64,000 nucleotides of DNA from contig NC_134028.1 of NCBI RefSeq assembly GCF_964204645.1, forward strand, positions 25,850,345 to 25,914,344. The letters are read 5' to 3'. Under the pieces are notes generated by a model. That model was not told the origin of the DNA and did no database searches. It saw only the letters and a program-made list of their open reading frames with translations. The stretch is from Tubulanus polymorphus (Eukaryota > Animalia > Nemertea). This document shows positions 36,008 through 64,000 of the stretch, one piece after another (the first letter of the stretch is position 1; every line of letters begins with the position of its first letter). Position numbers and translations under genes: made by a program.

Positions 36008-37030
36008 TCATTTCATCGTCGTATTACGTTTAACAGGGGTCGATGAGGGAGTCGACCTGGCGCTGCTCGGACGTTTAGAGGTGACCGTATGCTGAAATAT
36101 CGCGTTACTGATCGTAACGACGATCGCGAACAATTTCAACGGGAAATCGCAATACGACTGCTGCACGGCGTCCGCTTCGTTCGCGCTGATTATAAACAAT
36201 GGAAACAAAATCGAAAACACGCAACCGCTCACGACGTATGAGCTCGGCATCGACGTCAAAACGGCGAGGGGTAAACCGAAACCGATGAAATACGGCCATT
36301 GAGTTTCCATGTACGATAGACGTTTATGAACCTCCCAGCCCATGTTATACCACTTATACTCGAACGCGTACAACGAATATAACATACACATATGAACGAG
36401 GCCGACGAGTTCGCCGAGACCTCGTATCGGTAGAAAGTTCGCCAACATCCCCTGAATGAGGAATAATCCTTGCAGCAATAAACTGAACAATACATCGGCG
36501 ATCACTTTACTCAAACTCGGCATCAAATTCGGACGGCCGCGCGAACTTTTATACGCCGCGTCGGCGATGTCCTGGAACCATAAACTGTTGACGATTTTAC
36601 TCAGAATGAACAACGGTAGAATCCATAACGCGCCGAACGTCCACGTTAACATCGGCCCGAGCCACGTCCATATCGTACTCGAATCGGCGCTGCTCGCGAA
36701 TATATACTGCGTAAAGAATCTCAGACACGGTATCACGATGAAATTGAAGAGAATAATACTGGCCCAAAATATTCCTCCGTTCCACATACAGCACAGTACG
36801 ATTCTCTGCATGATGTTCGGAACGGATTTTTCTTTCTTTTTTTCCGGCGTTGTTTTCATGCGTTCGGCTCGCCGGCGCGCGAGGGTACTCTGAGGTTCGC
36901 GACTCGGAGATGAATTCTGTTGCGCGGCTTCTAATTCTTTATCCAAATAGAATAACCGCGCAGCGCCGAATACGCCGTCCTGAAGTCCTTTAGCAACGCC
37001 CAGAGCTATCAGCTTCACCGTATCCGCCAT
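36008..37030 (-). CDS. EI24: Etoposide-induced protein 2.4 homolog (EI24 autophagy-associated TM protein), 340 aa, single coding exon
   Basis: Uninterrupted ORF with CCMWNGGIFW, LWILPLFILSKIVNSLWFQDIAD, LYSLYAFEYKW, WPYFIGFGLPLA, SGCVFSILFPLFIISANEA. Probable 5'UTR intron (acceptor ~37067, donor ~37468). Confidence 0.95.
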   Translation of the reverse strand: MADTVKLIALGVAKGLQDGVFGAARLFYLDKELEAAQQNSSPSREPQSTLARRRAERMKTTPEKKKEKSVPNIMQRIVLCCMWNGGIFWASIILFNFIVIPCLRFFTQYIFASSADSSTIWTWLGPMLTWTFGALWILPLFILSKIVNSLWFQDIADAAYKSSRGRPNLMPSLSKVIADVLFSLLLQGLFLIQGMLANFLPIRGLGELVGLVHMCMLYSLYAFEYKWYNMGWEVHKRLSYMETQWPYFIGFGLPLAVLTSMPSSYVVSGCVFSILFPLFIISANEADAVQQSYCDFPLKLFAIVVTISNAIFQHTVTSKRPSSARSTPSSTPVKRNTTMK

Positions 37031-37151
37031 AGTTAATTTCGTGGTTTTTTAGAGTTTCCAGGTCACCTGAAATAGATCGAATAAATTGACAAGAAAGGAT
37101 TGAACATTGTAAATACGAACCCCTGACGGCCGTCCCGTGTGTGTGGGGACA

Positions 37152-40900: not shown

Positions 40901-41515
40901 ATTTTCACAAGAAGGGTGTGGCAGAGTGAAAGTTACTCACAAAATAACTAAGGGATCTACTCTAGTTCCACAGTTCTGAGTTAAATATTACTCTCGTGTT
41001 AAACACAGAACCCAGTTTTACAGTCGTGAATTAAAGAGTCAACTCTGAGTTTTAAGTTTGTTCATTTCCAAAGAGTTAACTCTCCAACAATGCCCAAAAG
41101 TGTGAATCTGAACTCAGAACTGTGAACTGTGGAACTGTGTTCTGAAAATAAACTGATTCACCGATTTTAACTCAAGAGTTAACTCACGACAAAACTGTCG
41201 GAGTGGACCCTATCACGGGCCCGTTTCAGATACGTGCCGTAGGTAATGTATTGTATATTGGAAAAGTCGATAATCTAGTTCACTGTTCAGTAGTTGATGT
41301 AGATTGTAGTAAGTTGGAAGATTTTTTTGCAAAAAAATCGTGTTAATCGCTCATTTGTTTCTCAGTGAGTGCTTTTATTTTAGAGTGAAATCGAATAACA
41401 TTTTGTATTGAAATTTTAGGTACATAACATGCGAGGAATCATATGCATGGGTAAACACAAATATATACACAAAAATTTACCTGTCAAAACTATCTTCATT
41501 CACGGTGCCCGCCAT
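37925..41515 (-). CDS. TEDC2: Tubulin epsilon and delta complex protein 2 (TEDC2/C16orf59) homolog, ~10 exons
   Basis: Exon 1 41515-41481 (MAGTVNEDSFD), exon 2 ~40858-40760 (...CRSLFKPW), 'EELLVKAQKARE', low-complexity exon 40061-39493 ending KPFLLVKDG, then QDLIVPSKVKK, 'TTLMYTKPQHL...KLDILHNE', last exon 'IYRSLYSLLCTKGRHFPILIAD'. These match, in order, my recollection of human TEDC2 blocks CRRLLHAW / ALEKAVRVR / FTLKEKGHLLRLP / LLVYSS / RAVHSLLCEGG. Confidence 0.75.
40523..40717. mobile_element. MITE with 6-bp TSD
   Basis: tctatg|cagacctgccaac ... gtttgacagctctg|tctatg; internal cagggac repeats. Confidence 0.75.
40952..41210. mobile_element. Harbinger-like MITE
   Basis: agttccacagttctgagtt ... 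aactcagaactgtg(g)aact inverted segments, with internal gagttaactc repeats. Confidence 0.55.
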
Positions 41516-42840
41516 ATTTGTGTTCAATAATGTAATATATTGAATTGAATAGGCGGCACCACCAGCCAACTCGCCTGCCAGTGCACAATCCGATATTAGA
41601 CTGGTTACCAATTCAACTTTATTGTAGATCTACAAAGTCTAACTCAAGGCAATTTACGATACAAAACAGAACACAATAAGAGACTCGTAGCCAATTAAGG
41701 AAAATAATCTAAACAGACACTACGAAATCTTCTTCAACATTAAATCTGGGGCAATTCAGGCTATTTTGTATTTACAACTATAACGGAATGGCATTTACTC
41801 TAAGTAGAGCCCCAGCTATCATGACCAATCCCATGAGATCGCAAACAAGGCTGGGACGGGCCGTGATTCACCCATTACCAAACGTGGTTGAAGAGAAACA
41901 AAGAGTTATTACGAATATAAATATTACAAATTCTTTATTACAGTCTAAAATAGTATGGATGAAAAACAGTATTTACAATGTGAATAATATACAATGTGAA
42001 TCAAATGTGAATAATAGCATTTTAAAACTTAATGAACGGGACACACACTTATATACATATATTATTTACAATACATATACTACTGGAGGGATTTACATCT
42101 ATTAGAAATAGAATTAGACCTATTTTGATAAATTAAGCAAAAGTTGGATTTTTTAAAATATTGAAGTTCCGAAATGTAAAGTAGTTTTTATGAAATTTGT
42201 TTTGTAATGAAGGAACTTATTTACGAGTAAAACTTTGAGACCGCATCCTGAACTGGAATTAACGGTTCACTAAATCTTCATCAAGCTGATTAATAGTTTT
42301 CGTAATTAATATCCCTGATATAGATTGAAAGATAACTTATAAAGGATTGAACTTGGTTTCATTTTTAGTTATCATATTGTGCTGCCACCATCAAATGCAT
42401 AATCCAACACTATCCGCGAATTCCGGAAATAGAGTTGTTAGAAACAAATTTCAAAATGATTTTTGGTTTGCCAAACTCACCATAATTTACACGTGTATAT
42501 TGGTTATTTTGTGGAAATTTTAATGCTTAACCCTTTCAGTGCTGGCTAATTAATACCCTATAGTGCTGAAGATAATTTGAAAATTCTGAATAATTCCACC
42601 CTAGTGTGTTGAATAACGGGAATAGCACTATAGTGCGTCTACACCGTGGTGCGGTGTATCGTTAGTTACTAGTATTTCACTATGTTTGACAGGTGCTGCC
42701 ATCTTTCAAGTGAGATAATTACTAATTACTGATTACATCAATACACCACAGTGCGGTGTATTAGCAAAATCTATCACTTATTAATACACCGCACTGCGGT
42801 GTAGACGCACTGAAAGGGTTAAGTAAGTTCAAAATATTCA
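41510..42840. promoter_or_regulatory. Copy A of the duplicated TEDC2/Chibby bidirectional promoter, interrupted by insertions
   Basis: 41510-41590 matches 44283-44353; 42378-42530 plus 42823-42838 match ~44540-44713, including ccggaa and the Chibby 5'UTR donor gtaagt. Confidence 0.8.
42531..42818. mobile_element. piggyBac-type MITE
   Basis: TTAA-ccctttcagtgc ... gcactgaaaggg-TTAA; internal tacaccgcactgcggtgta palindromes. Confidence 0.92.
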
Positions 42841-42958
42841 ATTGAAGTGTAGGAACTACTCTCGAAAAATAGTAGTCGTAGTCAGATCAGATGAAACGAC
42901 GAAAAAGCCTTACTTTTTATCATCGCACAGAGTTTGACAGACGCAATATAACTTGTTG

Positions 42959-44287
42959 TTATTCGCTCTTCTCGATAATTATCTGTTTGCGTTTCTTCGT
43001 GGGGGGTTGTTCGTCAAGTGATGAGGCGGCAGCGGTATACGTCGACGAGGCCTGGGCAGGCGGAAGTGCTTCGGATTCTTTACGTTCTACCACGATCATC
43101 CACTGATCTTCAATCATCTGGTTGCGAATGTCATAGATTTCCATCTGATAATGAAAATTACAATGATTTGTGAATCTGAGTTTTGAAAATCACTTGCCGG
43201 TTCAGGCTGGTTGGAAGATTGTTTGAATGTACTTCCATTTAAAAAAAGAACAAATTCTATGTATTCGACCCCCGATCACACATCTATATCTGTACTTCGA
43301 TTATTTCTAATATAAAATCGAACCTTGTTTCACTCCCGGCAAGTGTGGTGGGTCTGTGAGGGAGACCAAATCAAAACAAATGAAAAAAATCTACCAATCA
43401 AATAAATAGCAGGGTAAATCCCTATCTTAATTTTTGATTAAATGGAGCCTGGTTTCTGAACAACTTACATTGATTTCCGATTGCGCAACTTTTTCCATAA
43501 ACGAACGTTTCTTCAACATTTCTTTGCGAAGTGTTTCTTTGTGTTTATGAAGTATTTTCATCAGTCTGTGTTGCATCAAACGTTTCGTCTTCTCTTCCAA
43601 TGTTTCTTTATTTATCGGTTGTCGACTGCAAAAAGAACACAGCTCAATCATGAAATGAAGAGGGTAGTGAAACATCTAAATTTAGAATATCAGTGGTTCC
43701 TCAACGTTCATGGCGAACTTTGGGTTTTCTAGTTGTTCAACAATAGTGGCTGGAGATAGCCTAACTATCGAACACAACATAGTTTGGTCTTACACATTTC
43801 AGTGGTGACTTTTAATTGAACTATTGGAATTGAATTGGTGACCATCTCGGTCCTTGGAACAGCAAACTACAGCAACCGTGCTCCAGTTACCCCCAGTTAC
43901 ATGGTTTTGATTTTCCAATTAAGCGACAATCGGTAACACTTATTTTGCAATAGCCGACTAACTCTGATAACTGCTGAAGTTTCTTTTGTAACCATGATTT
44001 GATGGATGACAAAATTGCTTATACTCGCAATACTTTTCAACAAATCATACTAAAAAAAGATGACAATCGAAAGCTGTCTACCTGATTACCTGATTACCGA
44101 CCGGTCTACACTCAGTCTCTTTAATAAGAATCTATTCTGAAACTTACATTATTTTACGTGGTACAGGTTCAGGATCGATGACTGCTATTCGCATCGGAAT
44201 TTTGTTCTCCGGTTTTCGTTTCTTATTGTCAGCCAGATGTAGAACACGAAATAAATTATTTTGTTCATCTCTAAAAAATATTGCCAT
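42959..44287 (-). CDS. Candidate chimeric gene (or unprocessed pseudogene): TEDC2-derived start plus three duplicated BPTF exons, 160 aa
   Basis: Exons 44287-44148, 43625-43469, 43144-42959 with intact GT/AG sites and matching phases (2, 0). Paralogous to BPTF exons 50840-50752, ~50140-49988, ~49834-49575. Confidence 0.55.
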
Positions 44288-44713
44288 ATTTTTGTTCAAT
44301 AATGTTATATTGAATTGAATAGGGACCAACCAGCTCGCTTGCCAGCGTACAATTACTTGAACTTGAACTTATATTTATCGCGCCATGAATAACATTCATA
44401 CATAGGCTAAGACATAACATGCGATAAATTGACAGAACAAAACATTGAAGAATGACATTCAATAAACGCCCAAGTGTTCAATGAACACGTTCTCCCTCAG
44501 CTGGGACTCGAACCCGATGGCACCGCGCGAAGATCGTCTTGTGCTGTCACCATGAAATGCGGCATAATCCAACACTAACCCGGAAATAGAGTTGTTGTTA
44601 GAAACTTGTAAACAAATTTCAAAATAGTTTTCGGTTTGCAAACCTCCCCATAATTTACACGTGTAAATTGGTTATTTTGTCTCTTTTTACTGCTTGAGTA
44701 AGTTCAAAATATT
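44283..44713. promoter_or_regulatory. Copy B of the bidirectional promoter and Chibby non-coding first exon
   Basis: ETS-like ccggaa at ~44580; donor gtaagt at 44698 fits the acceptor tttcag at 44889 just before the Chibby ATG. Minus side keeps aacaaaaatATGGC. Confidence 0.65.
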
Positions 44714-44898
44714 CTATTTTTAATGTGAGGATAAGTTGAGAATATTTAATTTCATAAAATTCAACAAAAAAAGGAAACAGAAATTTATTGAACATGACAT
44801 GTTGAATTCAAATTTCTCTATTTTGGCCTTTCCTTAGATATTGAATTGTTCTATTTATCGTTGGCTAAAATTTTCGTCTTGAATTTCAGCTCCAAAAG

Positions 44899-45447
44899 AT
44901 GCCTTTGTTTGGAAACAAGTTCTCGCCGAAGAAAACTCCGGTTCGAAAATCACCGTCATTATCGAATCTGACGAGTGATCCGGAATTTATCCGATCGGAA
45001 TTAGCGCTCGACTACGGACCAATTCAAGTTAAACTCGGAAATAATGAAGTCACGTTTGAAAACGGTCAATGGATATCTGGTAAGTCGGCCGACAGAGATA
45101 TTCATTACCTCTAGTTCTATATTTCAACTTTTCGGTTAAAACCGAATATCTCTAATTTCAGAGTCAGAAGGTGTCGCCACTGTTCATCGAGAAATGGCGA
45201 AAGTGAAGAAACAAAATCAACAATTAATCGAAGAAAATAATTTGTTGAAATTGAAGATTGATATTCTATTAGATATGGTACGAAATTACGCGTTATGTCT
45301 CGAATGAATTCAACATTAGTCTCATCGACTCCTGTGTAATTGATCTTATCCTATTTTCAGTTATCTGAAACGACTGCTGAGGTTCATCTTCAAGAAAATG
45401 AAATTCAAGAACTGAAATCGATGTCGAAAAATGTTAAAAAGAGATGA
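44899..45447 (+). CDS. CBY1: Protein chibby homolog 1, 3 coding exons, ~127 aa
   Basis: Exons 44899-45079, 45162-45277, 45361-45447. MPLFGNKFSPKKTPVRKSPSLSNL...LDYG...FENGQW and coiled coil EENNLLKLKIDILLDMLSETTAE. Confidence 0.95.
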
Positions 45448-47602
45448 AGCAAACAGAGTTTAGTATTGCCGTTAATAACCTCAGAAGACTATCATGTGAT
45501 CCGGGACGGCTCTGAGCTCAGTATCATATACTTTATGCATTTGCTAGATCCATTATTGATGTGCAGCTCAATTATTATCAAAATGTATTAAACACTTGTC
45601 AAGGTTTTTAATTGATTTCAAGTAAACAAATGTAGCGAATAGAATCTGTAAAAACTGGTCAAATAGCTGATAGTTTATATGTAGAGAAGGAAGTGACTAG
45701 AAAATCATAGAATCTTTTGATTTTTCCCATATTTTACTTTAAATGTCTTTGTAACTTACAAATAGTTTATTTCTTCCTGTAGAGTTCAGCGATGTCAGTT
45801 TGAATACTTATCTGTGGTCTTAACATGGCTCAAAATTTTGCCTTAAAAAGCCTTTGGGTTTTATTTCAAAAGAAGAGTTCATTTTCTGTCCTAAGAAGTG
45901 TTGACAGCTCAATAATGAAATTGTTTCATATCCCTGTACATTGTATATGCATATTTTTTTCGATAGATTTTTTACATAAATTATCTTAAGATATTGTAGT
46001 TTTTCTCATTGTTTGATCTATTTCATTAACTTCACAAAAGGATCGGAATACGCACATCTCTGTTTACGATTTTCCATTGGTCTATTCTGATTACGGAATT
46101 CTCTTCTGGCGCTTTCGTTTCGACCAGAATAATCTGTGATCGTCTGCAGTTCCGACAGTAGCTGCTACTAGTTTGTGATATGGAATTCCTAAACCACAAT
46201 ACATTCTATCGGGAGCCTGCCTCAAGAATTTAACGCTCATGGCTTGAATAGTTTGGGGGCCATCCACTTCCTATAAGAATACAGCAGTTGAGACACAGTT
46301 CCTCAGCAAGGAGTTCAGACTCTACTCCAGAAAAGAAACCAAATCAAGCAGCAAAGATTTAACAACACAAGGATATGATTTGTATCATGTTATATATATT
46401 TTATATATAAGTGGAGCCTGTATTTTTATTTACTACTTATTGTTATGTATCTTGTATTTAACCAATAAATACTACATGTATGGTACATAGAGGTAAAATT
46501 ATGTAATGACGAATTTACATATGAAATGAATGGCTGCCTGATGTATGAATAAGTGAATGAAACACTATTTACGAACTTTAAAAATAATTTAAAAACTCAG
46601 TGAAGATGTACAAGTTTTATTACATTTTGTTCCTCAAACTTCACACAACGAAAACTGATTTTAGCTCGAATAATTGACTCAATAGATCGATTTTCTTCCA
46701 ATACCCTGTTGGAATTTTAATATAAGTTTGTAGGATCCAGCTCAGTATTTTTAATTATCATTACACAAGATGTTTCACGGAAAGGGGTCTAAAATTTGAA
46801 ACATAATATGGGGCGTACAGTACCACCACCTATCATTGAACAGAGAAACCAGCTACAAACATAGAAAACTAACACTTACAAAACGAACGCCAATCATATA
46901 TAATGATTATACATTGATGTTATATTTACAAATATTCAAAATCTAAATGATAATAATGAAATTTCAATTAGCAAATATCGTTAAACTCAGTAAACCGACA
47001 GGTCAACTGAACAGGCTATTAAGCTTAGCTACACGTATAATCAGTGCTTGCATGATGGACGCCTGCTTTATCTATTTCTCAATCAAAGTGACACGCGTGC
47101 GAGATATGTACCTTGAACATATATATAATACAATTATGAAATATCGAGTGACCCCAACCCAAAATATACTGCACATATCTAACCAGAAAATGATATAAAT
47201 GCAATAAACCAAGACAGACGCGCTGGATTGATTTCTAATTTTTCCCGGTCATAAATGCCCCTAAAGTTAAGTCGCGAAGGTCGTTATCCCTTCCAAAAAC
47301 AATCCTTAAACCCTTATCGTCTTTAAATAGCCGAATACATTACACTCTGTACTAAACAAACAAAGCATTCGAATAACAATTTATCTGAACCAATACACAA
47401 CGAAATATCTTAAAAACAATCTGTACATGCATCGTTCATTCTGTACACAATTCATTTGTGTAGAAAAATATTCTCTATCTCTCTTTCCTATTTAACATCG
47501 TACATACATTAATAAACAACTCTCGGGTTCATCTTTCGAGGGCGCCATCTTACGATTCAGTCATACCACATGAGTACGTTTACAACGTACACTCGAATTA
47601 TT

Positions 47603-50600
47603 CTACAAACACATTTTCTCTTTAATCGCTTTCAATCGTTGAACGAAATACGTTTCTAGAACCTCGGCGCACTGGTAATACGGAGATTCGCGCGGGTTGT
47701 AATAACGACAGTTGTCGAAGATTTTCATCACGTCTTTAACGAACTCGTGCAGATGATCGTATTTTCCGGCCAGCAGATTGTTCTCTAAAGTCGTCAGATC
47801 TAGAAAATAGTTCGAGATATCGAATTAATGCGCGGTGAAATGACTCGAATCGATCCATACAATGATTTTACCGATATACTCACCCATCGGTTCCTTGATA
47901 ATGTCGTAATAGTCGCCGACTTCCAGCGGGTCGACAGGTTCTAAAAACGGCCAGCCCATTTTATGAGCCTGAAATGCGAAAACGCGATTCATGCGAATGT
48001 TACAACTGCGGAATAAACCATGAACAAAAAATGAACAAATCCTCAGTTCGGAGTTCCAATATCGGTTAAAAGAACAGGTTCAGTGATGCACATACGTAAT
48101 AGTGGTAAACGTTAACATACCATATACCTTTCTCCGGACAAATCTCAACTGACACTAACTACAGTACGCTCGCTTGATTATAAAGTTTGAGCAAAGTTTA
48201 GTGTCTTTGCTCAAACTTCAGCGTACCATAGTTTTGTGTCAGTTTAAATTAGTCCTGAAAGCAAATACCGGTATATGTATATCAACCCTGAAAATGTTCA
48301 ACGGAAATATATCATGATATGCATTTCGTTCTTTTATGGATTATCAAACAAACAAAATGTCAATAAATCAATTACCACGAGACTTTTAACGAGTTTGCGT
48401 AGAGTTTCGATATCCGCATCGCCGAGCAGTTTATCCTTTTCAGCCGCTTTCTTATTCGATTTCTTACAACGAGGACAGATGTAAATATCGATTCTATCGG
48501 CTTCCGCTTTAGAGATACCGACGCATTTACCGTGGAACCAATCCTGACATTGATCGCATCCGATATACAACCTAAAAATCATCAACATAAGAATTCTAAG
48601 GTCTGGATATCTCTGAAAATTCCGATTTTTCATATTGTTCCAGGGTTTGATATCAACGCATTGTTCCCGCAGTTACATAAATTCAAAATTTACAAGCTCC
48701 ATGGTTGATTTTTCACTTTTCCCAAATGGAAATGGTGCCTTCTTAAAAGTGAAAATACCATCATACCACAAGGATGTTTTAATTGTGACTGGTTGATTAA
48801 GGTTGAAGAAAGTTGCCCTTGGGAAAATATCAAATTCCTAAACATTTCCGAACCAGGAAATGATACTAAAGTTATTGCCTGATTTCCCGGTACTGTGGGA
48901 ACAACGGGTCGGTAGTTTTCACCCGGTAAAATACATACATCGTATCATCGTAAGGCGTACGACATAAACAGTACAACTCCTCAGACGTGTCGTCTCTCTG
49001 TTTCTTACAATCCTCACAAATATACGAATCCATTCGTTTAGCCGCCGATTCCGAGATATTAACACACGAACCGTGAAACCAATTCGAACACAGGTCACAA
49101 CCAATGTAGAATCTGTATCAACGAATACAATAAAACTATCATTATCTTACTTAGTCAAACTTGGTGAAGTCATCATTAGTATACAACGCATCATTTGGGT
49201 ATTCACTATTTTTCAGCCCCGATTTGTATTTGCAAATAAAGTTAAGCAATAATCATCATTGAGCATCCTCAGCGTCCCTGCTATAACAACTTGAAGCAAG
49301 TTTGATCATATATTCAAATTGAATAATCAACATCAGATTGATTTGTCGAACAGGTTGTAATGGAGTAGAACCGACTGCGTTGGAAGTATCTACCTTTGTA
49401 GTGGTTTTCACCACCATTAGACATCTTAAGTAGGAGTTTAATTGAAAACGAACAAAGAAACATTTAGATTTTGAGAATATTTTGATATTTTTGTTAGTAA
49501 TTGAGCTCTCATAAAAGTAGTAATTACTCTCGACGAATATTAATGGTAGTCACGACTGATGAAACGAGCCTTACTTTTTATCGTCGTACGGAGTTTGGCA
49601 GACGCAGTATAACTTGTTGTTATTCGCTCTTCCCGATAATTTTCCGGTCGAGATAATCTTCTGTTTGCGTTTCTTCGCGGGGGGTTGTTCGTCGAGCGAC
49701 GACGCGGCCGCGGCGTACGTCGACGAGGCGTGGGCAGGCGGAGGCATCGGCGGAAGTGCTTCGGATTCTTTACGTTTTAGCGCGATCATCTGTTGATCTT
49801 CGAGCATCTGATGGTGAATGTCTGAGACTTCCATCTGATAATGAAAATGATAATGATTCATATCAATTTACTTATTTACTTCATTCTATATGGTACGCCC
49901 TATTTTAACGGTGCACTCCTCCCTGAATCTGGAGTGCACGTCGGTTAGCGGGACCGATGATGCATCCTGGTTTACTGAACAACTTACATTGATTTCCGAT
50001 TGCGCAACTTTTTCCATAAACGAACGTTTCTTCAACATTTCTTTGCGAAGTGTTTCTTTGTGTTTATGTAGCATTCCCATCAGTCTGTGATGCAGCAATC
50101 GTTTCGTCTTCTCTTCCAATGTTTCATTATTTTTCTGTCGACTGCAAAAAAACGCGGCTAAATTGTACGAAGTGAGAAGCACTAAAACCAGAACCGAAGT
50201 TCACCCCTTTAATAATGCTCCGTTCAGGCTCCTATTATCAATTTCTTATTTCTTTAGTTTTTTTGTAACCATGATTTTATTGATGACAAAACAAATATCT
50301 AACGTGGTTCAGGCAGGTTTTGATTGGTCTCTACGGAATTCTCTTCTGACGCGTTAGTTTCACCCAGAATTAATCTGCCTATTCCAGAATAGCATAATCT
50401 GCTATTCTTCAATTACTATACGTTTAACCCTTTCAGTGCGTCTACACCGCAGTGCGGTGTATAAATCAGTGATAGATTTTGCTAGTACACCGCACTGTGG
50501 TGTATTGATGTAATTACTAATTATCTCTCTTCAAAAATGGCAGCACGTGTCAAACATAGTGAAATACTAGTAACTAACGATACACCGCGTCGTGGTGTAG

Positions 50601-53600
50601 ACGCACTATAGTGGTATTCCCGTTGTTCAACGCACTAGGGTGGAATTTTTCAAAATTTTCAAATAATCTCCAGTACTATAGGGTATTAATTAGTCAGCAC
50701 TGAAAGGGTTAATCCAAACCTGTCTACATTCTATTCTTCCGTTAAACTTACATTATCTTACACAGAGGTTTATTAGGGTCGATCACTGCTATTCGTTTCG
50801 GAATTTCTTTCTCGGGTTTTGGTTTCACGATGTCGGCCACCTGTAGAATACAAAATGAAAATAATTTCATTCATTTAAACAAAAATAATTCCAAGAAGAA
50901 ATCGGCAAAAATCTCTTCGAAACAAAGCGACAACGTTAACAACACGCATTTATATCAGCGGCTCATTTATTTACGACGCGCGTCAAATCTGAAATATTTG
51001 TCTGATCAATAACTGTATGTATATCGAAGGCCTATTTCAATAAACAAATTCATTTTTTTCAGCTTGAAAATAGTTTTTATAATAATAATCATAATAATAA
51101 TCCTAATTTATTTTCCACATAAAGACAGCGATGAAATGAAAACATGTGCCTACACCTGACGATGATCACTAGTGCGAGATCGAAACGTCGTGTATTCTAT
51201 ATATTTTAGATTAAGTAATAAATTCTTGTTTTTAAATTCTTTTAATCTGTAGATAGTGGGTTTTTATCTTATTATCTATTCACCACGTCTGAGTGTGGTT
51301 ATCATTCTCTAATGTGCCCTCATGGAGGTGGTCACACTAATTAAACAGGGAACAATTAAAAGTGCTCCTTACTGTAAATTTTGAGCCTTGATTTAACATA
51401 CATTGACAGAAACCGAACGTGCAAGCGTTCACAATGGTGTGTGAATAACACAGAAATGAACTAATTAACAGGTTATAACCACGAGTCAAAGTTTTTGTCT
51501 AATCAATATTTTCAATAGATAAACTTGAATGAACAAATAAATTCTGAATTTTGCACACAGAAACAATACACTAAAAGCGGTATAAAGTGAAGCCATGCTG
51601 AGATTGAATGAGTTGTTATTGTTACCTGTTGCGTAGTGATTGGCAGTGTAAGACAAACCTGCTGCGTATCTGAACTACTCGCTACGACCGATGAGCCGCC
51701 CTGCTTCTGAGACAGTATCTGACGCTGCATCGCGAGCAGTTTAGTCTGAATTTCTGGCGTCTGGTTTTGTAGAAGCGCTTGTTGAACGACTGGAAATTAT
51801 ACAGAATCGATAAGCTTCTAATCGCAGCCAACATAATTGAATAGATCAGATTTCGGCCGTAATTAAGAAATGGTGTTTATAAATATGGCATTCAATGAGG
51901 TACCAGTATTGCGGCTGCAGCAAGCAAGGGCATGGGAGCCTAAAAATCTGGTTTCCTCATTTCTGTCTCGATTTTTCTGATTGCTGGAGTTTTTCAGGTT
52001 TTTGGGAAGAGTTTTCCAGGGGCCAGTTGCACAGCCGTGACTTAAGTCTAAAAGTGGTCTCAAATCTTAAGACCAATCTTAAGTTGTTAGATTAGCTATA
52101 GAACTAAGTTGGTCTTAGACTGGTCTTAAGTCTAAGCCTCGACTATACAACCGGCCCCAGGTGTCTACCCTGCCGGACGGTACATCATTGAATATAAACA
52201 GTAGATATTTACCTTGTTGAATGACCTGTGGAGTAACTGTATGCCTCGTCGGAGGCACAGACGTCGGAGTCGGAGGCGTTTTCGGCGCCGCGTTACCGGC
52301 CACCGGACGGGTCGACAATCTCGGAGGAGACGTTGACGTACTGAACGATATTGTCGGAGCGACGCTCGAAATACCGCTGGTCGTCGTCGGAGACGTCGTC
52401 GTGGTAGTCGCCGAGACCACCATCGGCTGGCCGATTTTAACGATCGGTTCCATCGGTTTATTAACGGTAGTTTTACCGGCGACCGCGACGACCGGTTGAG
52501 GAGCGATGATTATATTTTGCGACGTCGGTTGTTGCGTCGCAGTCGTCGTCTGCTGAACCGGCGTCTGCTGTTGTTGTTTCACTTGTCGTTGTTGTTGCGC
52601 GAATTGTAAAACTTGTTGTAGTTTATCGAGCGTGACGAGAGTCGGTTGATTCGAACCCGGTTGTTGAATCGATATCGCTGATTTCGATACGAGCGTCGTC
52701 GAAGCCCCCGATGTCGCCGTCGCCGTACTCAACACCGTGTTCGCGTTGTTAGTCTTCGCGTTCGGGGTGACCGTTACGAATTTAGGTATCGAGGTCGCGC
52801 CGCTGATCACCGACGACTTGGGAACGGCGGCGATGATATTCGCGGTCGACGTACCGATCCCGGCCGGCGCTATTATCGGAATGGTCGCGGAGGCGCTCGA
52901 CGTCGGGCGTATGGTTAACGCGGGACGCGTGATAATCGTCGTCGGAGCGGTCGTATTGGAAGTCGGAGTAACCGGTTGTTGGAGTAGGAGTCTTCCGTCG
53001 GGCATGCGTATGACCTGCTGACCTAAAAATCATATAAACATCGGTCTTTAATAAATCTGTCGGTTTTCGTGTACCGTCACTACACTCAACACTAAGCAGC
53101 TAAAATATAAAACAAAGGCTAAAAAATACCTCGTATCTCATTTCTGCCGAGCTCAATAGTTGACCCAACTGGCCACTTATCTACCGTGTACATTACTTTT
53201 TTTTCAAATCATGATCGAGCGAACTATAACAGACCCGGCAGTTACAGAAATGAGCCAATTACAAAGCATATTGCCTAAAATAAAACAACCAGGCCAAAAA
53301 AGGAGAAACAAGGTATTTTTCTTTATCCTAACAGCAAGCTACTACTACATTGAACATAGGGATAAGTCAGTGACTGACTTCTTACAGATCAGGCAATCCT
53401 AAATTCCGTCATAGTTCCCTGACCCTTGACCGAAAATCCTTTATTGATTTGCAAGATATTCTCAGTGGAGGCTGATTCTTCTCAAGAGGTTCCTTGAGAC
53501 AAGACGCCGGAAAATCTCTGACTTTTTCCCCAATTTTCAAGTAGTCAGAATTCCTACATTATCCTTGCTTGGAAATATATCTACATTTCCCCGATCTGTA

Positions 53601-56600: not shown

Positions 56601-58827
56601 TACCGCCGCTGCGTCGTCGTTCTCGGCTCTAATCGGAGCGAAAACTTTTGCGTTGTCCAACGCATCTTTCAACACGCTGGCGCCGTCTACCTCAGTTTTT
56701 ACCGGTACTTTTTCGACATCGATGTCGTCTAGAGATTCATTTTTTTCGTTCTCCTCCATCGGCTCTTCTTTAACTAGAGCTTCATCGTCGGCAGCAGATT
56801 CCTCAGCAGACGGATCTCGCTGTACGTCCATTTGTTGTTCGTCACTTTGTTCAGTTTTAATCTGAATTGTATCCGGATCCGCGGGCGTTTGTGTTGCCGT
56901 CTCCGGATCCGCGGGCGTTTGTGTTGCCGTCTCCGGAGTCTCGTCTGATTGGTTGCTTTTCCTGCAACTCGTTGAGTAACACTCGTATTCTCCGTCCGAA
57001 CGACACGACGACGAGTAACAAGAAAACGACGAAGCCACCGTCAAATTCATCAAGTTTTCGTCGCTCTTCGATTCGTGAACTTCGCCCGAATCTTTCCGGG
57101 CCGCGCCTGCCGCCGCCTCGCGTATTTTCGCTAGTTTCCGCACTTTCTCGTTCTGCGCGACGGCCTTCGCGTGATTTTGATCCATTATTAAACTCATTAT
57201 TCCCTTGCGTTGTTTGAATTCGCGTTCCTCTTGCGCTTGTCGTTTCTCTAATAACGAGTCGAGTTTCGATTGTGGTTTTTTCACGCGTGGATAAAGCGTA
57301 TGCTCTCGTATTGATTTCGACACGTCGATCAGCTCATCATTCAGGAACATCTTTTCAATCTCCGGATCGTGGACGACTTTTTCGATGTTTTCATCCGATG
57401 ACCGAGTGATCGCTTCACTGGTTGCAGACGATTCTTGAACTTTGCTTTTCAGTTCATCAGTTGGCACATTTTTATCTTTACCCGTAGATTCTACAGAACT
57501 GTTGGGTTCTATTCCTTTATCAATCGACACTACAGAACTGCTCAGTTCCATTGCTTTATTGGAAGATTCTACAGAACCACTAGGTTCTATTGCTTTGTCT
57601 GAAGGTTCTACAGAACCGCTGGGTTCTATTGCTTTATCTGAAGGTTCTACAGAACTGCTGGGTTCTATTGCTTTATCCATAGATTCTACAGAACCGCTGG
57701 GTTCTATTGCTTTATCTGTAGATTCTACAGAACCGCTGGGTTCTACTGCCTTATTCGTAGATTCTACAGAACCACTGAGTTCCATTACTTTATCAGCAGA
57801 TTCTACAGAACCGCTGGGTTCTATTGCTTTATCTGAAGATTCTACAGAACCGCTGGGTTCTACTGCCTTATTCGTAAATTCTACAGAACCACTCAGTTCC
57901 ATTGTTTTATCAGTAGATTCTTCAGAAGTACTGGGTTCTACTGCTTTATCTGTTGAATCTGTAGTTTTTTCCTCAGATATTTCCATACGCTCTGGTTTGA
58001 TTGTTACATCTGGTTGATGATTATCACTGAAAGTTTGTTTTACCGCAGACGAATTCGTAGTCGATGGATCTTCAGTCACCACAGTTTCACCGGTTTCCTA
58101 AAACCATCAAACACAAATCACGAGGTCAAAACAAAATCTGAAGTAATATTTGAAGTAAATTAAAGACTAAAGGATATGAATTACGCACCTGATCGGTTTC
58201 CATTCTAATAGGTTCATCAGAAACGTCTTGTTTTACTTCATCAGTATCATCAACTTCCATTTCCGCATGTTTATCACTTGATTCATCCGTCGTGGCAGTT
58301 GTTGATTCCTCCGTTGTAGCGGGTATTGATTCCTCTGTTGTAGCAGGCGTTGATTCCTCTATTGCGGCAAGTCTTGATTCCTCCATCGCTACTAGCCTCG
58401 ATTCATCTGCCGCGGCAGTAGTTCTCGATTCGAGTAATCGCTTTTTACGGGTTCGTAAATTACCGGCAGCCGACCGTAGACCGACTTCGTTTTGAGGCAC
58501 GTAACGATAATTACGCGTAACGCTCGTCCAGTACCAACCGGCCGTTCCGTAAATACGATACTCCTCCCCCCGCTGTTTCCAAACCTGTAATCACAAACCG
58601 TCCGTTCATTACAATCACTATGATGTCATAGGGAGAATATAAGGAGGCGGCCATCGTTTCTATGAATACCGACCTGATGTTTTAATCCGAGCGTATATTT
58701 AGCCCAAGTCGATCGATCGATTTCCTCGTCGTCGTCTTTCTTCTTTTTCGGCACCAATTCTCGTTCTCTTTTCTTCGCCTCTTCTCGTTCGGTCGCCGTG
58801 TATCGCTGCATTCTAATGTGACCTGAA

Positions 58828-58865
<38 letters not shown>

Positions 58866-61800
58866 CAAACAAGTCGTATTGGAAGATTTAAGCACTTTCA
58901 TTTATTCTTATACGCCGTATACACTAATCCTCGTAACAACTCACCGAGTCCGTCGCTCCAAACGGTATTCATAACCACCGGTTTAACGGACGCCTCGAAT
59001 ATCAACAGAGCGGCCGCGAAATCCATCGGCTCGCGGCACATATTGACAGCGTTTAACCACGTCGTACGATGAGCCGGCCACGCCGGATGTAGAAACATGA
59101 CCGGCGCCGCCGCCTCGAGTTGTATCATACTCTGACGTAGAGTCACGACGGTTAGATCACGACTGCTGTAAACGGCTCCGTTCCATTTGAAATCGCTGGC
59201 CGGCGTTAAACTGAATTTGTGCGATAGATAACGTCGACGATCTCGTTCTTCGTTGTGCTGGTGTTTATTCAATCCTAACGTGTCGGTCGCGTAATAATTC
59301 TGATACTGTTTATAATTACCTTCGTAACCTTCAAAAATAAATCCACGGATAAACAATAGTTTCATCGATAAAACAAGTAATGAATGATTTCATGATGAAG
59401 TAAACCGTAATATTTTCAAATTTTTCATTATTTTCCCCCCAAAACCCCCGGGATGAGCCCGACTGAGCACAGACTGGGAGAGGACACGGGATGAGCCCGA
59501 CTGAGCCCAGACTGGGAGAGGACACGGGATGAGCCCGACTGAGCCCAGACTGGGAGAGGACACGGGATGAGCCCGACTGAGCCCAGACTGGGAGAGGACA
59601 CGGGATGAGCCCGACTGAGTCCAGACTGGGAGAGGACACGGGATGAGCCCGACTGAGCCCAGACTGGGAGAGGACACGGGATGAGCCTGACTGACTTCTC
59701 AACCAAGTAAACATTTTTCAAGACAACTAAAAAAACACTGAATGAAGAAACTGGAGGAAAGGAGCGTAAATTACGTACCTAATTTAAAGACGATTGACTG
59801 CGTAGATTGAGTTGTAGTTGTAGTTGTAGTAGATGTCACTGTATTCAGTAAACTCTTACCGCGACGGGTGTCGACTCGTACGATTTTACCGTCTTTATTG
59901 ATTACGAGAACGGCGTCGTCCGGGTTACCGGCCATACTGTTTACGACGTTCGACGAGTAACTCGTCATTTTAACGCTCGCCGTCGTGGAAACGATTGAAT
60001 CGACGAATTGTTTCGGCGTCAGTGATCCGGTTTTCGACCGTGTTACGATACGTCTGTTATCGGTGCTAGTTTCTGTGAAATAGATCATCATAGTTTATTG
60101 AATTCATCTTCTATTTAGTATTAGTATAGCCTACAGCAGCCACTTTCCACCCATTTACAAATTCCCCGAGTTTTCACTGATTTTTCCATGTTATAACAGA
60201 AAAAACCACGAGTAAATCAGAGAAATTTCTACGCTTAAATGTTACTATTCATCCCTTTTTTATTGAATCATGTATTCATTGAATAACATATTTGCGTTTT
60301 GTGAGTTTTGCCTGATTTTTTCCAATTCCCTGAGTTTTCCAGGCTTTCCAGTGGCCATGATGGAGGTTCATTTATTTTTCGTCAATCTAGCTATAATGTA
60401 ATTAATGATCGACACTTATTGAATGAGGACCCTGTTCTGCAATCCTGCTAGATGGTATACTTAACCAGATCTAAATGCAGTTCATTTACGATAAATTTTC
60501 AACTCGATTTTTAGCGTCCCACGTAAAACATTAGACGCGATGTCTCATGATAAACTCAGATTGACGTTCACCGCTCACCTGTAGCACTAGAGGTTGTAGT
60601 CGTTTCGTGTGAAGTTGACGATACAATCATTTTACTATCCCCACTTGCCGCAGCCTCTTCCTGCGTAATATGGTCGCCTTGTTCGTCGACTTTCATTTTT
60701 CCCACATCATTTCCACCTGTTAAAAAACGAACCAGTAGAATATTAGTATCAATATCTTTCTATAATCAGTTCATTCAAATTTTGCGTACATTTGTTTTCG
60801 TACACGACGTATAAGTCCCACAATTCTAAATTTACGAAAGTTTTAATGAAATGTCTGAATTGTCATTTGAAGAGAAGCGCAAACTGTAAACACTGCAAAT
60901 ATTCCTATATTCAAACAAACTTTTTTCGATCTAAATTTGAGGGACTGAGACGTTGATTTATGACAGATATAATGATTTCACGACAAGTGATTTATGTATT
61001 TACTTTTATCTTTTGGTTTGATGACGATTGTTTTGCCTTCAACTGTAGCCGATAAACTGACTGTTGTCGTCGACAAAGTAGATGTCGTCGATACTAATTT
61101 CAGCTCCATTTTCTGCGTAACGGGGTTTAAAACGAGACAAGCTCGACCCATCGTCGACGTAGTTTTAGTCGTCGCTTCGGTCGTCTTCTTTTCAACATCG
61201 GTCTGAAAAATATCGAACCAGATTATCAAACAACAGAGTTCATAGAGATGATGCAAAAATAAGATAGTGAAACAACTTTTGATAGTGAGGCAAATATGAC
61301 ACGTTTCTTATCGTTTAAGAACGCAGCCCTCGTCCTAATCCATTACATTTACGCAGGCGTCCAAATTATCGTCCAAAAAATATTTTGGAATACCAAAAAT
61401 CGACAATAGAAATCTTTTTGAATAGTAAGCACTTTTTAAAGGGCTTATCCCCCGAAACGAGCTGTATTTGAATTTAGCCCCAGAGAGAATTAAAAATCTA
61501 AACCAACCACTGATTTCATCTCTACGGTTTTCTCTTCATTGATTGGTTCGTCGATCTTCTCTTCTTTTATAGCGTCCGGTTTATTCTCATCAGTTTCCAT
61601 GGCGACTGGGTATTCGGTCGGTACGACGGTTTCTGAATTGTCGGATATTTCCGCTTTCACCGAGGGAGTTGAATTCAAGTCCCGCGAATCGGCATTTTCT
61701 TCAGATTTCTCAGAATCATCAGATTCTTTTGTTACGGATGAAGTAATATTTTCAGTCTTCTCAGCGCTGTTTTCAGTATTCACGTCAGTATTTTCAGTTT

Positions 61801-63477: not shown

Positions 63478-63804
63478 CTAGAAAATTAACAATAAAATCT
63501 TTTTGTACAGATTGTATTAAATCATTATATTACCTAACAGGGTTCTTAGATATCAGGGAAACCAATATTCCGCGATATTTCCCTAAACTTTTGACCAATA
63601 ATTCCTTCATTGAATTATGCCTAGTGCGAGCATTACTCGTGCTACTACCAGGAAGAACAAGACACTTAAAATTCAAATAGGGCCTTCTCCGACTCCAAGT
63701 AGCCACGCAAGAAAGGAGATTTCCTTGACTTTCCCTATAGGGAAAAAAAAATCTGGAACTCTAATTTCTGCACTGCAATACGGTGAATTATTTGATGATC
63801 GACT

Positions 63805-64000
63805 GCTAGTACACTGCATTGTGTATTGTAGTAATTAATTTCTATCTCTATTGATACCTGACAGCATCTATCAAACAGAACCAGTCAATTTTAGTGAAAC
63901 TAGTCACAAACGATACACCGCACCGTGGTGTAGACATAGACATAGACACTTAGGTTAAGTGGTGTGCCTGTTATTCAAACCCATTGGGGTAGAATTATTT
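63805..64000. mobile_element. Diverged partial copy of the piggyBac-type MITE family
   Basis: gctagtacactgca..tgtgtattg..aacgatacaccgcaccgtggtgtagac..gttattcaa matches 50480-50650. Confidence 0.65.

What the first reader, a model, noticed from the sequence alone, without database searches (positions are those of the whole stretch)
42959..44287. Candidate young chimeric gene: TEDC2 start codon driving three duplicated BPTF exons
Seen: 42845-44270 is a DNA-level copy of BPTF ~49510-50885 (intron remnants are shared, e.g. ttttgtaaccatgattt at ~43985 and ~50262). The BPTF acceptor ttctacAG|GTG has become ttctacAT-CTG. Upstream sits a copy of the TEDC2 start context (aacaaaaatATGGC, ATG at 44287 vs 41515). 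That ATG reads with no stop through former intron sequence into the BPTF frame (MAIFFRDEQNNLFRVLH-LADNKKRKPENKIP...). Remaining splice sites are intact and phase-correct, giving 46+1+52+61 = 160 aa. The internal indels I can see (+3 nt, -9 nt) keep the frame. A 17-nt deletion between two ATTATC microhomologies then forces a stop right before the PHD finger. Inference: a mini-protein with the BPTF coiled coil and a PTKKRK NLS-like motif but no chromatin readers, which might act as a NURF decoy under a centriole-gene promoter.
Basis: partly seen in the sequence, partly recalled or inferred. Interest (0 to 1): 0.82.

Follow-up and report, generated by a model that had tools for sequence, protein, structure and literature searches.

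The report
Expressed BPTF fragment on cilia promoter
A local DNA duplication in a ribbon worm put three exons of the chromatin gene BPTF behind a neighbour's start codon and promoter; the copy is transcribed and spliced and keeps an open frame, so it likely makes a small helix protein without BPTF's histone-reading domains, a well-kept example of a known route to new genes whose function is unproven.

Summary
The three minus-strand exons give a 160-aa protein identical to RefSeq XP_074649208.1 (LOC141904516, Tubulanus polymorphus, 'uncharacterized'). A 167-nt contig from a second sample joins exon 1 to exon 2 with 0 mismatches to the copy and 26 to BPTF, so intron 1 is spliced. DNA reads of a third sample cover the copy with alleles of their own. 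Corrections: the exon-3 deletion is 12 nt, not 9. The copy is not very young (dS about 0.3). It sits on the promoter shared head-to-head with Chibby, and TEDC2 uses the duplicate promoter. Selection evidence is mixed. The frame survives better than neutral drift predicts (P about 0.001-0.03). But pairwise dN/dS (0.43, 95% CI 0.25-0.79) fits a neutral copy, and a 94-nt identical tract points to gene conversion. Fly NURF assembles without this C-terminal region, so a decoy for the NURF core is unlikely. Best reading: a weakly constrained nuclear mini-protein carrying BPTF's conserved helix; main rival: a transcribed pseudogene. The scan noted promoter and start-codon capture in other genomes, not this locus. 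New member of a known kind.

The parts
44148..44287 (-). Exon 1 of the copy: ATG at 44287 from the TEDC2 start context, about 16 codons of exonised BPTF intron (44283-44237), then the BPTF exon copy (44236-44148)
   Evidence: spliced contig X5 covers 44148-44247 with 0 differences
43626..44147 (-). Intron 1 of the copy (GT..AG, 522 nt); only its edges and a 34-nt internal piece still align to the BPTF intron
   Evidence: joint 43625/44148 in X5, with 0 support in DNA runs X6 and X1
43469..43625 (-). Exon 2 of the copy: conserved BPTF helix; 3-nt in-frame insertion
43456..43549 (-). 94-nt tract identical to BPTF across the exon-2 donor: probable gene-conversion tract
   Evidence: permutation P 2e-5 on the spliced alignment; P 0.012 on synonymous sites alone
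43145..43468 (-). Intron 2 of the copy (GT..AG), holding fragments of high-copy repeats
   Evidence: splicing rests on the RefSeq model
42959..43144 (-). Exon 3 coding part: end of the helix, 12-nt in-frame deletion, PTKKRK motif, then a 17-nt deletion between two ATTATC copies and the TAA stop
   Evidence: DNA reads of X6 cover it at depth about 9-13 with no indel row
42849..42958 (-). Out-of-frame remnant of the first BPTF PHD codons, the retained donor at 42914 and a BPTF intron remnant up to the second junction
44283..44353 (-). Leader/core-promoter island shared with TEDC2 (twin at 41511-41589, 81%); TGG microhomology at the junction with the BPTF intron
44533..44718 (.). Chibby 5' region including its non-coding first exon (44651-44697, + strand); twin at 42371-42528 plus 42819-42843
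44651..45676 (+). Chibby gene (ATG 44899), head-to-head with the copy, spliced in X5
42527..42822 (.). MITE with terminal inverted repeats and TTAA target duplication, inserted at the splice donor of the duplicated Chibby first exon; a second copy lies in the BPTF intron (50424-50712)
41481..41589 (-). TEDC2-like gene (LOC141904515): leader and exon 1, ATG at 41515, behind the duplicate promoter
49576..50893 (-). Parent BPTF segment: intron end 50893-50841 and exons 50840-50752, 50141-49988 and 49834-49576

Best explanation
The locus is a transcribed, spliced partial duplicate of BPTF, likely born by a tandem duplication plus a secondary deletion, that likely makes a 160-aa nuclear mini-protein carrying only BPTF's conserved pre-PHD helix and would weakly compete for that helix's binding partner in cells that express Chibby. 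Origin (inferred from the junctions): a unit of about 6.6 kb running from a BPTF intron (50893) through the BPTF 3' end and Chibby to the TEDC2 ATG was duplicated in tandem at a TGG microhomology. The downstream unit then lost about 4.8 kb (the PHD and bromodomain exons and Chibby's coding exons); one event with two template switches would give the same layout. The result is that the promoter still shared with Chibby now fires into a dead BPTF acceptor, so the intron end became the first 16 codons, while TEDC2 moved behind the duplicate promoter. Shown: the anatomy, the open frame, splicing of intron 1 and presence in three samples. Inferred: use of the ATG at 44287, splicing of intron 2 (RefSeq model only), translation, nuclear import, co-expression with Chibby and competition for a partner. 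Selection seems to act on keeping a frame and a helix, not on exact residues. The partner is unknown and is probably not the ISWI/NURF55/NURF38 core.
For: Spliced product equals RefSeq XP_074649208.1. Run X5 (sample S3; RNA inferred from three GT..AG joints in Chibby) has 1 contig of 167 nt joining 44148-44247 to 43559-43625 with 0 differences; the same span differs from BPTF at 26 letters plus gaps. The joint has no support in DNA runs X6 or X1. X6 (sample S4) covers 30 of 30 bins with its own alleles and no indel row in the exons, so the 12- and 17-nt deletions are shared. Frame survival under neutrality: P(no stop) 0.09-0.39 for 53 down to 20 substitutions; P(no frameshift) 0.006-0.07 at the 10 gaps per 54 mismatches of the non-coding twins; jointly 0.0009-0.03. 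Both indels inside the BPTF-derived frame are multiples of three, and all four splice sites are intact. Among the 40 of 51 X6 difference rows shown, 2 fall in exons 2-3 (340 nt; one synonymous, one Ser>Thr) against 10 rows plus 3-5 indels in intron 1 (522 nt), P 0.01-0.09. AlphaFold gives one helix at residues 56-124 with pLDDT 90-99 over residues 61-120. The copy keeps all 9 invariant columns of a 13-row alignment: the copy, its parent and 11 unnamed BPTF-like exon products.
Against: Pairwise dN/dS is 0.43 (131 codons, 95% CI 0.25-0.79; 0.46 without the tract) or 0.38-0.40 with a gapped exon 1. That is not below the 0.5 expected when a neutral copy is compared with a constrained parent (bootstrap P(omega>=0.5) = 0.32). 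The 30 amino-acid changes are no more conservative than simulated neutral ones (mean BLOSUM62 -0.43 vs -0.29 to -0.39). Several of the kept invariant residues lie in the 94-nt conversion tract, so their retention needs no selection. The scan picks out intact-looking copies, which weakens the frame-survival P. The polymorphism test is weak: low depth in exons 1-2, 11 rows hidden and one diploid sample. The splice evidence is one contig at depth 3.1 that stops 40 nt short of the ATG, and a possible alternative acceptor (T-run plus AG at 44278-44271) lies inside exon 1. A highly expressed reader-less nurf-1.q transcript in C. elegans gave no detectable protein (PMC6752949, passages).
Confidence: 0.45

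Rival explanations
1. Transcribed pseudogene. The duplicate inherited an active promoter and working splice sites, so it is transcribed and spliced as a by-product. Its residues drift neutrally, gene conversion from BPTF 6 kb away refreshes part of exon 2, and the open frame is luck. The duplication fixed by drift or because TEDC2 kept a working promoter.
For: dN/dS 0.43 is compatible with 0.5, and the changes are as radical as neutral ones. The 94-nt identical tract points to conversion. The frame does end in a frameshift. In human partial duplicates 29 of 31 paralogues stay expressed while 17 of 29 have a compromised ORF (PMC6169893, passages), so expression alone proves little.
Against: Joint chance of no stop and no frameshift is 0.0009-0.03. 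Conversion removes substitutions and indels together, so it does not explain 58 substitutions with only in-frame indels (inference). Exon alleles look scarcer than intron alleles (P 0.01-0.09).
Confidence: 0.35
2. Selection acts on the RNA or the act of transcription, not on the protein. The copy soaks up the divergent output of the Chibby promoter and ends it before the TEDC2 promoter. Splice sites and an open frame are kept because they set the processing and stability of that RNA.
For: The copy lies head-to-head with Chibby and ends about 1.4 kb before the TEDC2 ATG. Splice sites and frame are kept while residues drift.
Against: It gives no clear reason for frameshifts far from the junctions to be purged; nothing here tests it directly.
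Confidence: 0.1
3. NURF-core decoy: the mini-protein binds ISWI or other NURF subunits, or BPTF itself, and forms reader-less complexes in a dominant-negative way, like SRGAP2C.
For: It keeps a conserved amphipathic helix and a basic motif and lacks the PHD and bromodomain. Truncated duplicates can act antagonistically (SRGAP2C, CHRFAM7A; PMC6169893, passages).
Against: NURF301 residues 1-1557 co-purify with ISWI, NURF55 and NURF38 (PMC2705796, passages). The DDT, WHIM and PHD1 domains are N-terminal (PMC10711654, passages), and none of them is in the copy.
Confidence: 0.08
4. Assembly artefact or private haplotype.
For: A tandem-like layout next to repeats.
Against: The exons differ from BPTF by 6-23%. 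A 934-nt unitig of X1 spans the ATG junction with 0 differences (X1 may be the window's own source, so it is not independent). Copy-specific sequence appears in samples S3 and S4.
Confidence: 0.02

Closest known systems
Chimeric genes from tandem duplication with secondary deletion (Drosophila yakuba and D. simulans; PMC4069613, passages)
   Same: Breakpoints in two neighbouring genes; the 5' end of one joined to part of the other; a multi-kilobase deletion inside the duplicated unit.
   Different: Here only the promoter, leader and ATG come from the 5' donor. The copy is old (dS about 0.3) and found in three samples, not a segregating variant.
Partial duplicates with recruitment or exonisation: Hun, fog-2 (PMC3449122, passages; Hun paper PMC1463047 seen as listing and abstract start only)
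   Same: Part of a parent ORF plus exonised non-coding sequence completes a new frame; gene conversion with the nearby parent, as in fog-2/ftr-1.
   Different: The recruited codons come from the parent's own intron at the N-terminus. No function or expression pattern is known here.
Human truncated duplicates SRGAP2C, CHRFAM7A, HYDIN2, ROCK1P1 (PMC6169893, passages)
   Same: 5'-truncated duplicate rescued by a foreign promoter; possible antagonism by an isolated domain.
   Different: Truncated at both ends; no interaction with the parent or its partners has been shown.
Caenorhabditis nurf-1 split genes and nurf-1.q; Drosophila NURF301-C (PMC6752949, PMC2705796; passages)
   Same: BPTF-family sequence expressed without the C-terminal PHD-bromodomain readers; duplication of internal BPTF-family exons followed by faster protein evolution.
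   Different: Those are isoforms or two halves that together keep the whole protein. Here full-length BPTF stays and the copy is one helix. Homology of the nurf-1 shared exons to this helix was not tested.
Primate LRRC37 promoters copied from BPTF (PMC3371713, passages)
   Same: A BPTF segment reshuffled by duplication to give a new promoter-gene pairing.
   Different: The reverse exchange: there BPTF donates the promoter, here it donates exons.

Membership tests
Chimeric/partial duplicate gene made by tandem duplication | DNA-level copy of part of a parent gene, with intron remnants | tested here: met
Chimeric/partial duplicate gene made by tandem duplication | Sequence from two different genes joined at a novel junction | tested here: met
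   TEDC2 leader and ATG joined to a BPTF intron at TGG
Chimeric/partial duplicate gene made by tandem duplication | Transcribed and spliced as its own unit | tested here: met
   Intron 1 spliced in 1 contig of X5; separate RefSeq locus; intron 2 and the transcript ends rest on the model
Functional protein-coding gene | Purifying selection on the reading frame | tested here: met
   Joint neutral P 0.0009-0.03, before allowing for the scan's choice of intact copies
Functional protein-coding gene | Purifying selection on amino acids on the copy's branch | tested here: inconclusive
   Pairwise 0.43, CI includes 0.5; no close outgroup found to polarise the changes
Functional protein-coding gene | Translation into a stable protein | not testable with these tools
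   needs Ribo-seq or proteomics
BPTF/NURF301 (NURF scaffold) | N-terminal DDT/WHIM/PHD1 region that assembles ISWI, NURF55 and NURF38 | tested here: not met
   P0001 derives only from three 3' exons and has no Pfam hit at cut-off; PMC2705796, PMC10711654
BPTF/NURF301 (NURF scaffold) | [quoted passage not shown] | tested here: not met
   stop precedes the first PHD codons
BPTF/NURF301 (NURF scaffold) | Conserved helix before the C-terminal PHD fingers | tested here: met
   the homologues are unnamed exon products, taken as BPTF-like by sequence
Dominant-negative truncated duplicate (SRGAP2C type) | Binds the parent protein or the parent's partner and inhibits it | not testable with these tools
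   the partner of this helix is unknown; needs pull-downs

The most novel reading that the evidence does not exclude
A lineage-specific BPTF mini-gene has been wired to the Chibby ciliogenesis promoter and titrates the unknown partner of BPTF's animal-wide pre-PHD helix in ciliated cells, tuning NURF targeting without touching the complex's core. It would then be a natural isolated-domain probe for a conserved BPTF helix that has no described function in the papers searched.
Probability: 0.15. Interest if true: 0.72.

Novelty: new member of a known kind. Interest (0 to 1): 0.42.

Why it matters
Every step of gene birth can be read in 10 kb: duplication, secondary deletion, promoter swap, intron exonisation, gene conversion and truncation. 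The product is spliced in a second sample and present in a third. If the protein is made and selected, it isolates a conserved BPTF helix of unknown role and links a cilia-gene promoter to a chromatin remodeller, which makes that helix directly testable. It also shows TEDC2 uncoupled from a likely ancestral head-to-head promoter with Chibby. If it is a pseudogene, it is an ordinary but instructive warning that RefSeq 'uncharacterized' singletons can be fragments of a neighbouring gene.

Tried and rejected
No whole genome was held, so other copies elsewhere in the genome were not checked. The run search listed 10 runs, 5 holding part of the stretch; no RNA holder was listed on record, and X5 is taken as RNA only from its spliced joints. 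X7 and X8 laid 0 records. X5 and X9 gave no cover of copy exon 3, of junction 43469>43144 or of the ATG, and X6 depth at the ATG junction was under 2; these are blanks, not evidence. X9 holds a 155-nt contig that joins copy-type exon 2 (43469-43559) to BPTF exon 3. I treat it as a likely assembly or template-switch chimera over the 81-nt identical stretch and did not count it as support. The homodimer prediction for residues 45-128 gave no answer (score 0.00, controls not run, alignment not used). Foldseek against the PDB found 0 matches at E<=0.001, phmmer against the PDB nothing below E 0.6, and Pfam nothing at cut-off for P0001. No sister-species orthologue or close BPTF outgroup turned up: 1 hit among 9 candidates (limited to 92-2000 aa, so full-length BPTFs were likely outside it), and 16 hits in the 50% library, of which only P0001 is under 1e-10. 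The changes therefore could not be polarised. Rfam on 41400-45000 gave 4 sub-threshold miRNA matches, all on the MITE hairpin; rejected. An in-frame BPTF-TEDC2 fusion was considered (exon 3 up to its retained donor is phase 2, like TEDC2 exon 1) and rejected because stops precede the donor. Literature: searches returned 0 papers, and those listed none about this locus or a function for this helix (listings and abstract starts only). Two NURF papers had no hit for 'coiled' or 'helix'. No supplements were read; domain maps in them could bear on the helix's partner.

Full report
Observation. A self-BLAST of the window pairs 42849-43168, 43442-43648, 43978-44014 and 44140-44286 with 49517-50893, and 44283-44353 with 41511-41589. 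Exons 44287-44148, 43625-43469 and 43144-42959 have GT..AG introns and give 160 aa. Exon identities to the parent are 77, 94 and 87%. The parent is BPTF (PHD and bromodomain exons; human BPTF is the best PDB hit). The downstream gene is TEDC2-like: PF15764 at E 4e-4, below cut-off, and TEDC2 clusters come first in both Atlas searches, which count as one source. A search with exon 2 returned one protein among 9 candidates, 100% identical over the query: RefSeq XP_074649208.1, 'uncharacterized protein LOC141904516 [Tubulanus polymorphus]', 160 aa, a singleton cluster, letter for letter the spliced product. NCBI's pipeline thus built the same model; what evidence it used is not visible here.

Anatomy and origin. 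It has a spliced non-coding first exon at 44651-44697, about 360 nt from the copy's ATG. A twin of this Chibby 5' region lies at 42371-42843, fused to the end of the BPTF remnant and broken at its splice donor by a TTAA-flanked MITE. On the minus strand the order is therefore BPTF, Chibby, promoter, ATG, BPTF exon copy, Chibby-5' remnant, promoter twin, TEDC2. The simplest history (inferred) is a tandem duplication of about 6.6 kb from the BPTF intron at 50893 to the TEDC2 ATG, joined at a shared TGG, followed by loss of about 4.8 kb from the second unit. Tandem duplication with secondary multi-kilobase deletion is common in Drosophila (PMC4069613, passages). A single event with two template switches fits equally well. 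The chimera holds the promoter that is still paired with Chibby, and TEDC2 uses the twin. The first 16 codons after the ATG are former BPTF intron (75% identical). In today's BPTF intron that frame contains a TGA, which the copy avoids through 1- and 2-nt gaps; the direction of those changes is unknown.

Expression and presence in other samples. The run search listed 10 runs. Run X5 (sample S3) has no library record but shows three GT..AG joints in Chibby, so I take it as RNA. One X5 contig of 167 nt, depth 3.1, joins 44148-44247 to 43559-43625 with 0 other letters and 0 gaps. BPTF differs over that span at 26 letters plus gaps, so the contig is not BPTF. DNA runs X6 and X1 show no such joint. 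Intron 1 of the copy is therefore spliced, and the RNA runs through the dead acceptor. The contig stops 40 nt short of the ATG. X6 (raw WGS reads, sample S4, about 12% read) covers 30 of 30 bins with alleles of its own and lists no indel in the exons, so the 12- and 17-nt deletions are shared. X1 has a 934-nt unitig across the ATG junction with 0 differences; it may be the window's source, so it excludes an assembly error but is not an independent sample.

Selection. Against function: pairwise dN/dS is 0.43 over 131 codons (dN 0.13, dS 0.30; 95% CI 0.25-0.79), 0.46 without the identical tract, and 0.38-0.40 with a gapped exon 1. It is below 1 (bootstrap P 0.004) but not below the 0.5 expected for a neutral copy of a constrained parent (P 0.32). 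The 30 residue changes are as radical as simulated neutral ones. A 94-nt run at 43549-43456 is identical to BPTF across the donor (permutation P 2e-5 on the spliced alignment; P 0.012 on synonymous sites), which points to gene conversion. For function: a neutral copy with 20-53 substitutions of its own would avoid stops with P 0.39-0.09. It would avoid frameshifts with P 0.07-0.006 at the indel rate of the non-coding twins (10 gaps per 54 mismatches), jointly 0.03-0.0009 for 20-40 substitutions. These figures use an intron-derived indel rate and ignore the scan's preference for intact copies. In X6, 2 of the 40 shown rows (of 51) fall in exons 2-3 against 10 rows and 3-5 indels in intron 1 (P 0.01-0.09); exon 1 is left out for low depth, and the test is weak. 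The pattern is frame and splice sites kept, residues drifting. I put the chance that the protein is under some selection at a little over one half.

The protein. AlphaFold (single sequence, pTM 0.37) gives one helix at residues 56-124 with pLDDT 90-99 over residues 61-120, flanked by low-confidence tails. The helix matches 15 unnamed proteins at E 1e-5 to 9e-4, most of them apparently single-exon BPTF-like products. The copy keeps all 9 invariant columns of an alignment with its parent and 11 of these, though several lie in the conversion tract. The PTKKRK motif looks like a nuclear localisation signal (a pattern recalled from general knowledge, not tested).

Mechanism. Drosophila NURF301 residues 1-1557 co-purify with ISWI, NURF55 and NURF38 (PMC2705796, passages), and BPTF's DDT, WHIM and PHD1 domains are N-terminal (PMC10711654, passages). 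The copied helix lies just before the C-terminal PHD fingers, so it should be dispensable for core assembly (inferred from position). A decoy for the NURF core is therefore unlikely (0.08). The conserved face of the helix implies some partner, so the best reading is a nuclear mini-protein, co-expressed with Chibby, that weakly competes for that partner (0.45). The main rival is a transcribed pseudogene (0.35). Selection on the RNA alone gets 0.10 and an artefact 0.02.

Novelty and verdict. Chimeric and partial duplicates with promoter capture and exonisation are a known class (PMC3449122, PMC4069613, PMC6169893; passages read). BPTF-family exon duplication is known in nematodes, and BPTF promoter capture in primates. 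The paper searches named under Tried and rejected listed nothing on this locus. The scan's notes hold similar promoter and start-codon captures in other genomes but nothing near this window or like this protein. It is a new member of a known kind, better supported than most because of the splice junction and the presence in three samples, with function open. Interest 0.42.

Noticed in passing
window 44651-45676 (+): Chibby gene with a spliced non-coding first exon, head-to-head with the copy. Chibby and TEDC2 are both centriole/cilia genes (recalled), so the ancestral layout was likely a shared bidirectional promoter that the duplication split.
   Followed up: yes
window 42527-42822, 50424-50712, 63767-63935: A family of about 290-nt MITEs with CCCT...AGGG ends and TTAA target duplications (piggyBac-like; label recalled). 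Many contigs of X5 and X9 match it, so it is high-copy.
   Followed up: partly
window 43469-43559 joined to 49771-49834 (run X9, one contig): Copy-type exon 2 letters joined to BPTF exon 3: an assembly or template-switch chimera, or a BPTF allele converted by the copy in sample S3.
   Followed up: partly
window 44380-44530: Repeat insertion in the copy's promoter between the two conserved islands (raised depth in X6 and X1); it has a B-box-like word and looks like a tRNA-derived SINE (recalled pattern; Rfam gave no match).
   Followed up: partly
window 43190-43415: Fragments of very high-copy repeats inside intron 2 of the copy (depth hundreds of times the flanks).
   Followed up: no
window 50840-49988 (-): In this worm's BPTF the charged helix that precedes the conserved block in the unnamed homologues seems replaced by a proline-rich linker exon.
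   Followed up: no
window 42915-43144 and 41481-41515 (-): After the 12- and 17-nt deletions, exon 3 up to its retained donor is phase 2, matching TEDC2 exon 1; only the stops block an in-frame BPTF-TEDC2 splice. Probably chance (1 in 3).
   Followed up: partly
window 36012-37031 (-): Single-exon ORF of about 340 codons right after TEDC2, membrane-protein-like; it resembles EI24 (recalled, not tested).
   Followed up: no
window 57476-57960 and 59449-59694: A 39-nt tandem repeat inside the large BPTF exon (13-aa units) and a 76-nt tandem repeat in a BPTF intron.
   Followed up: no
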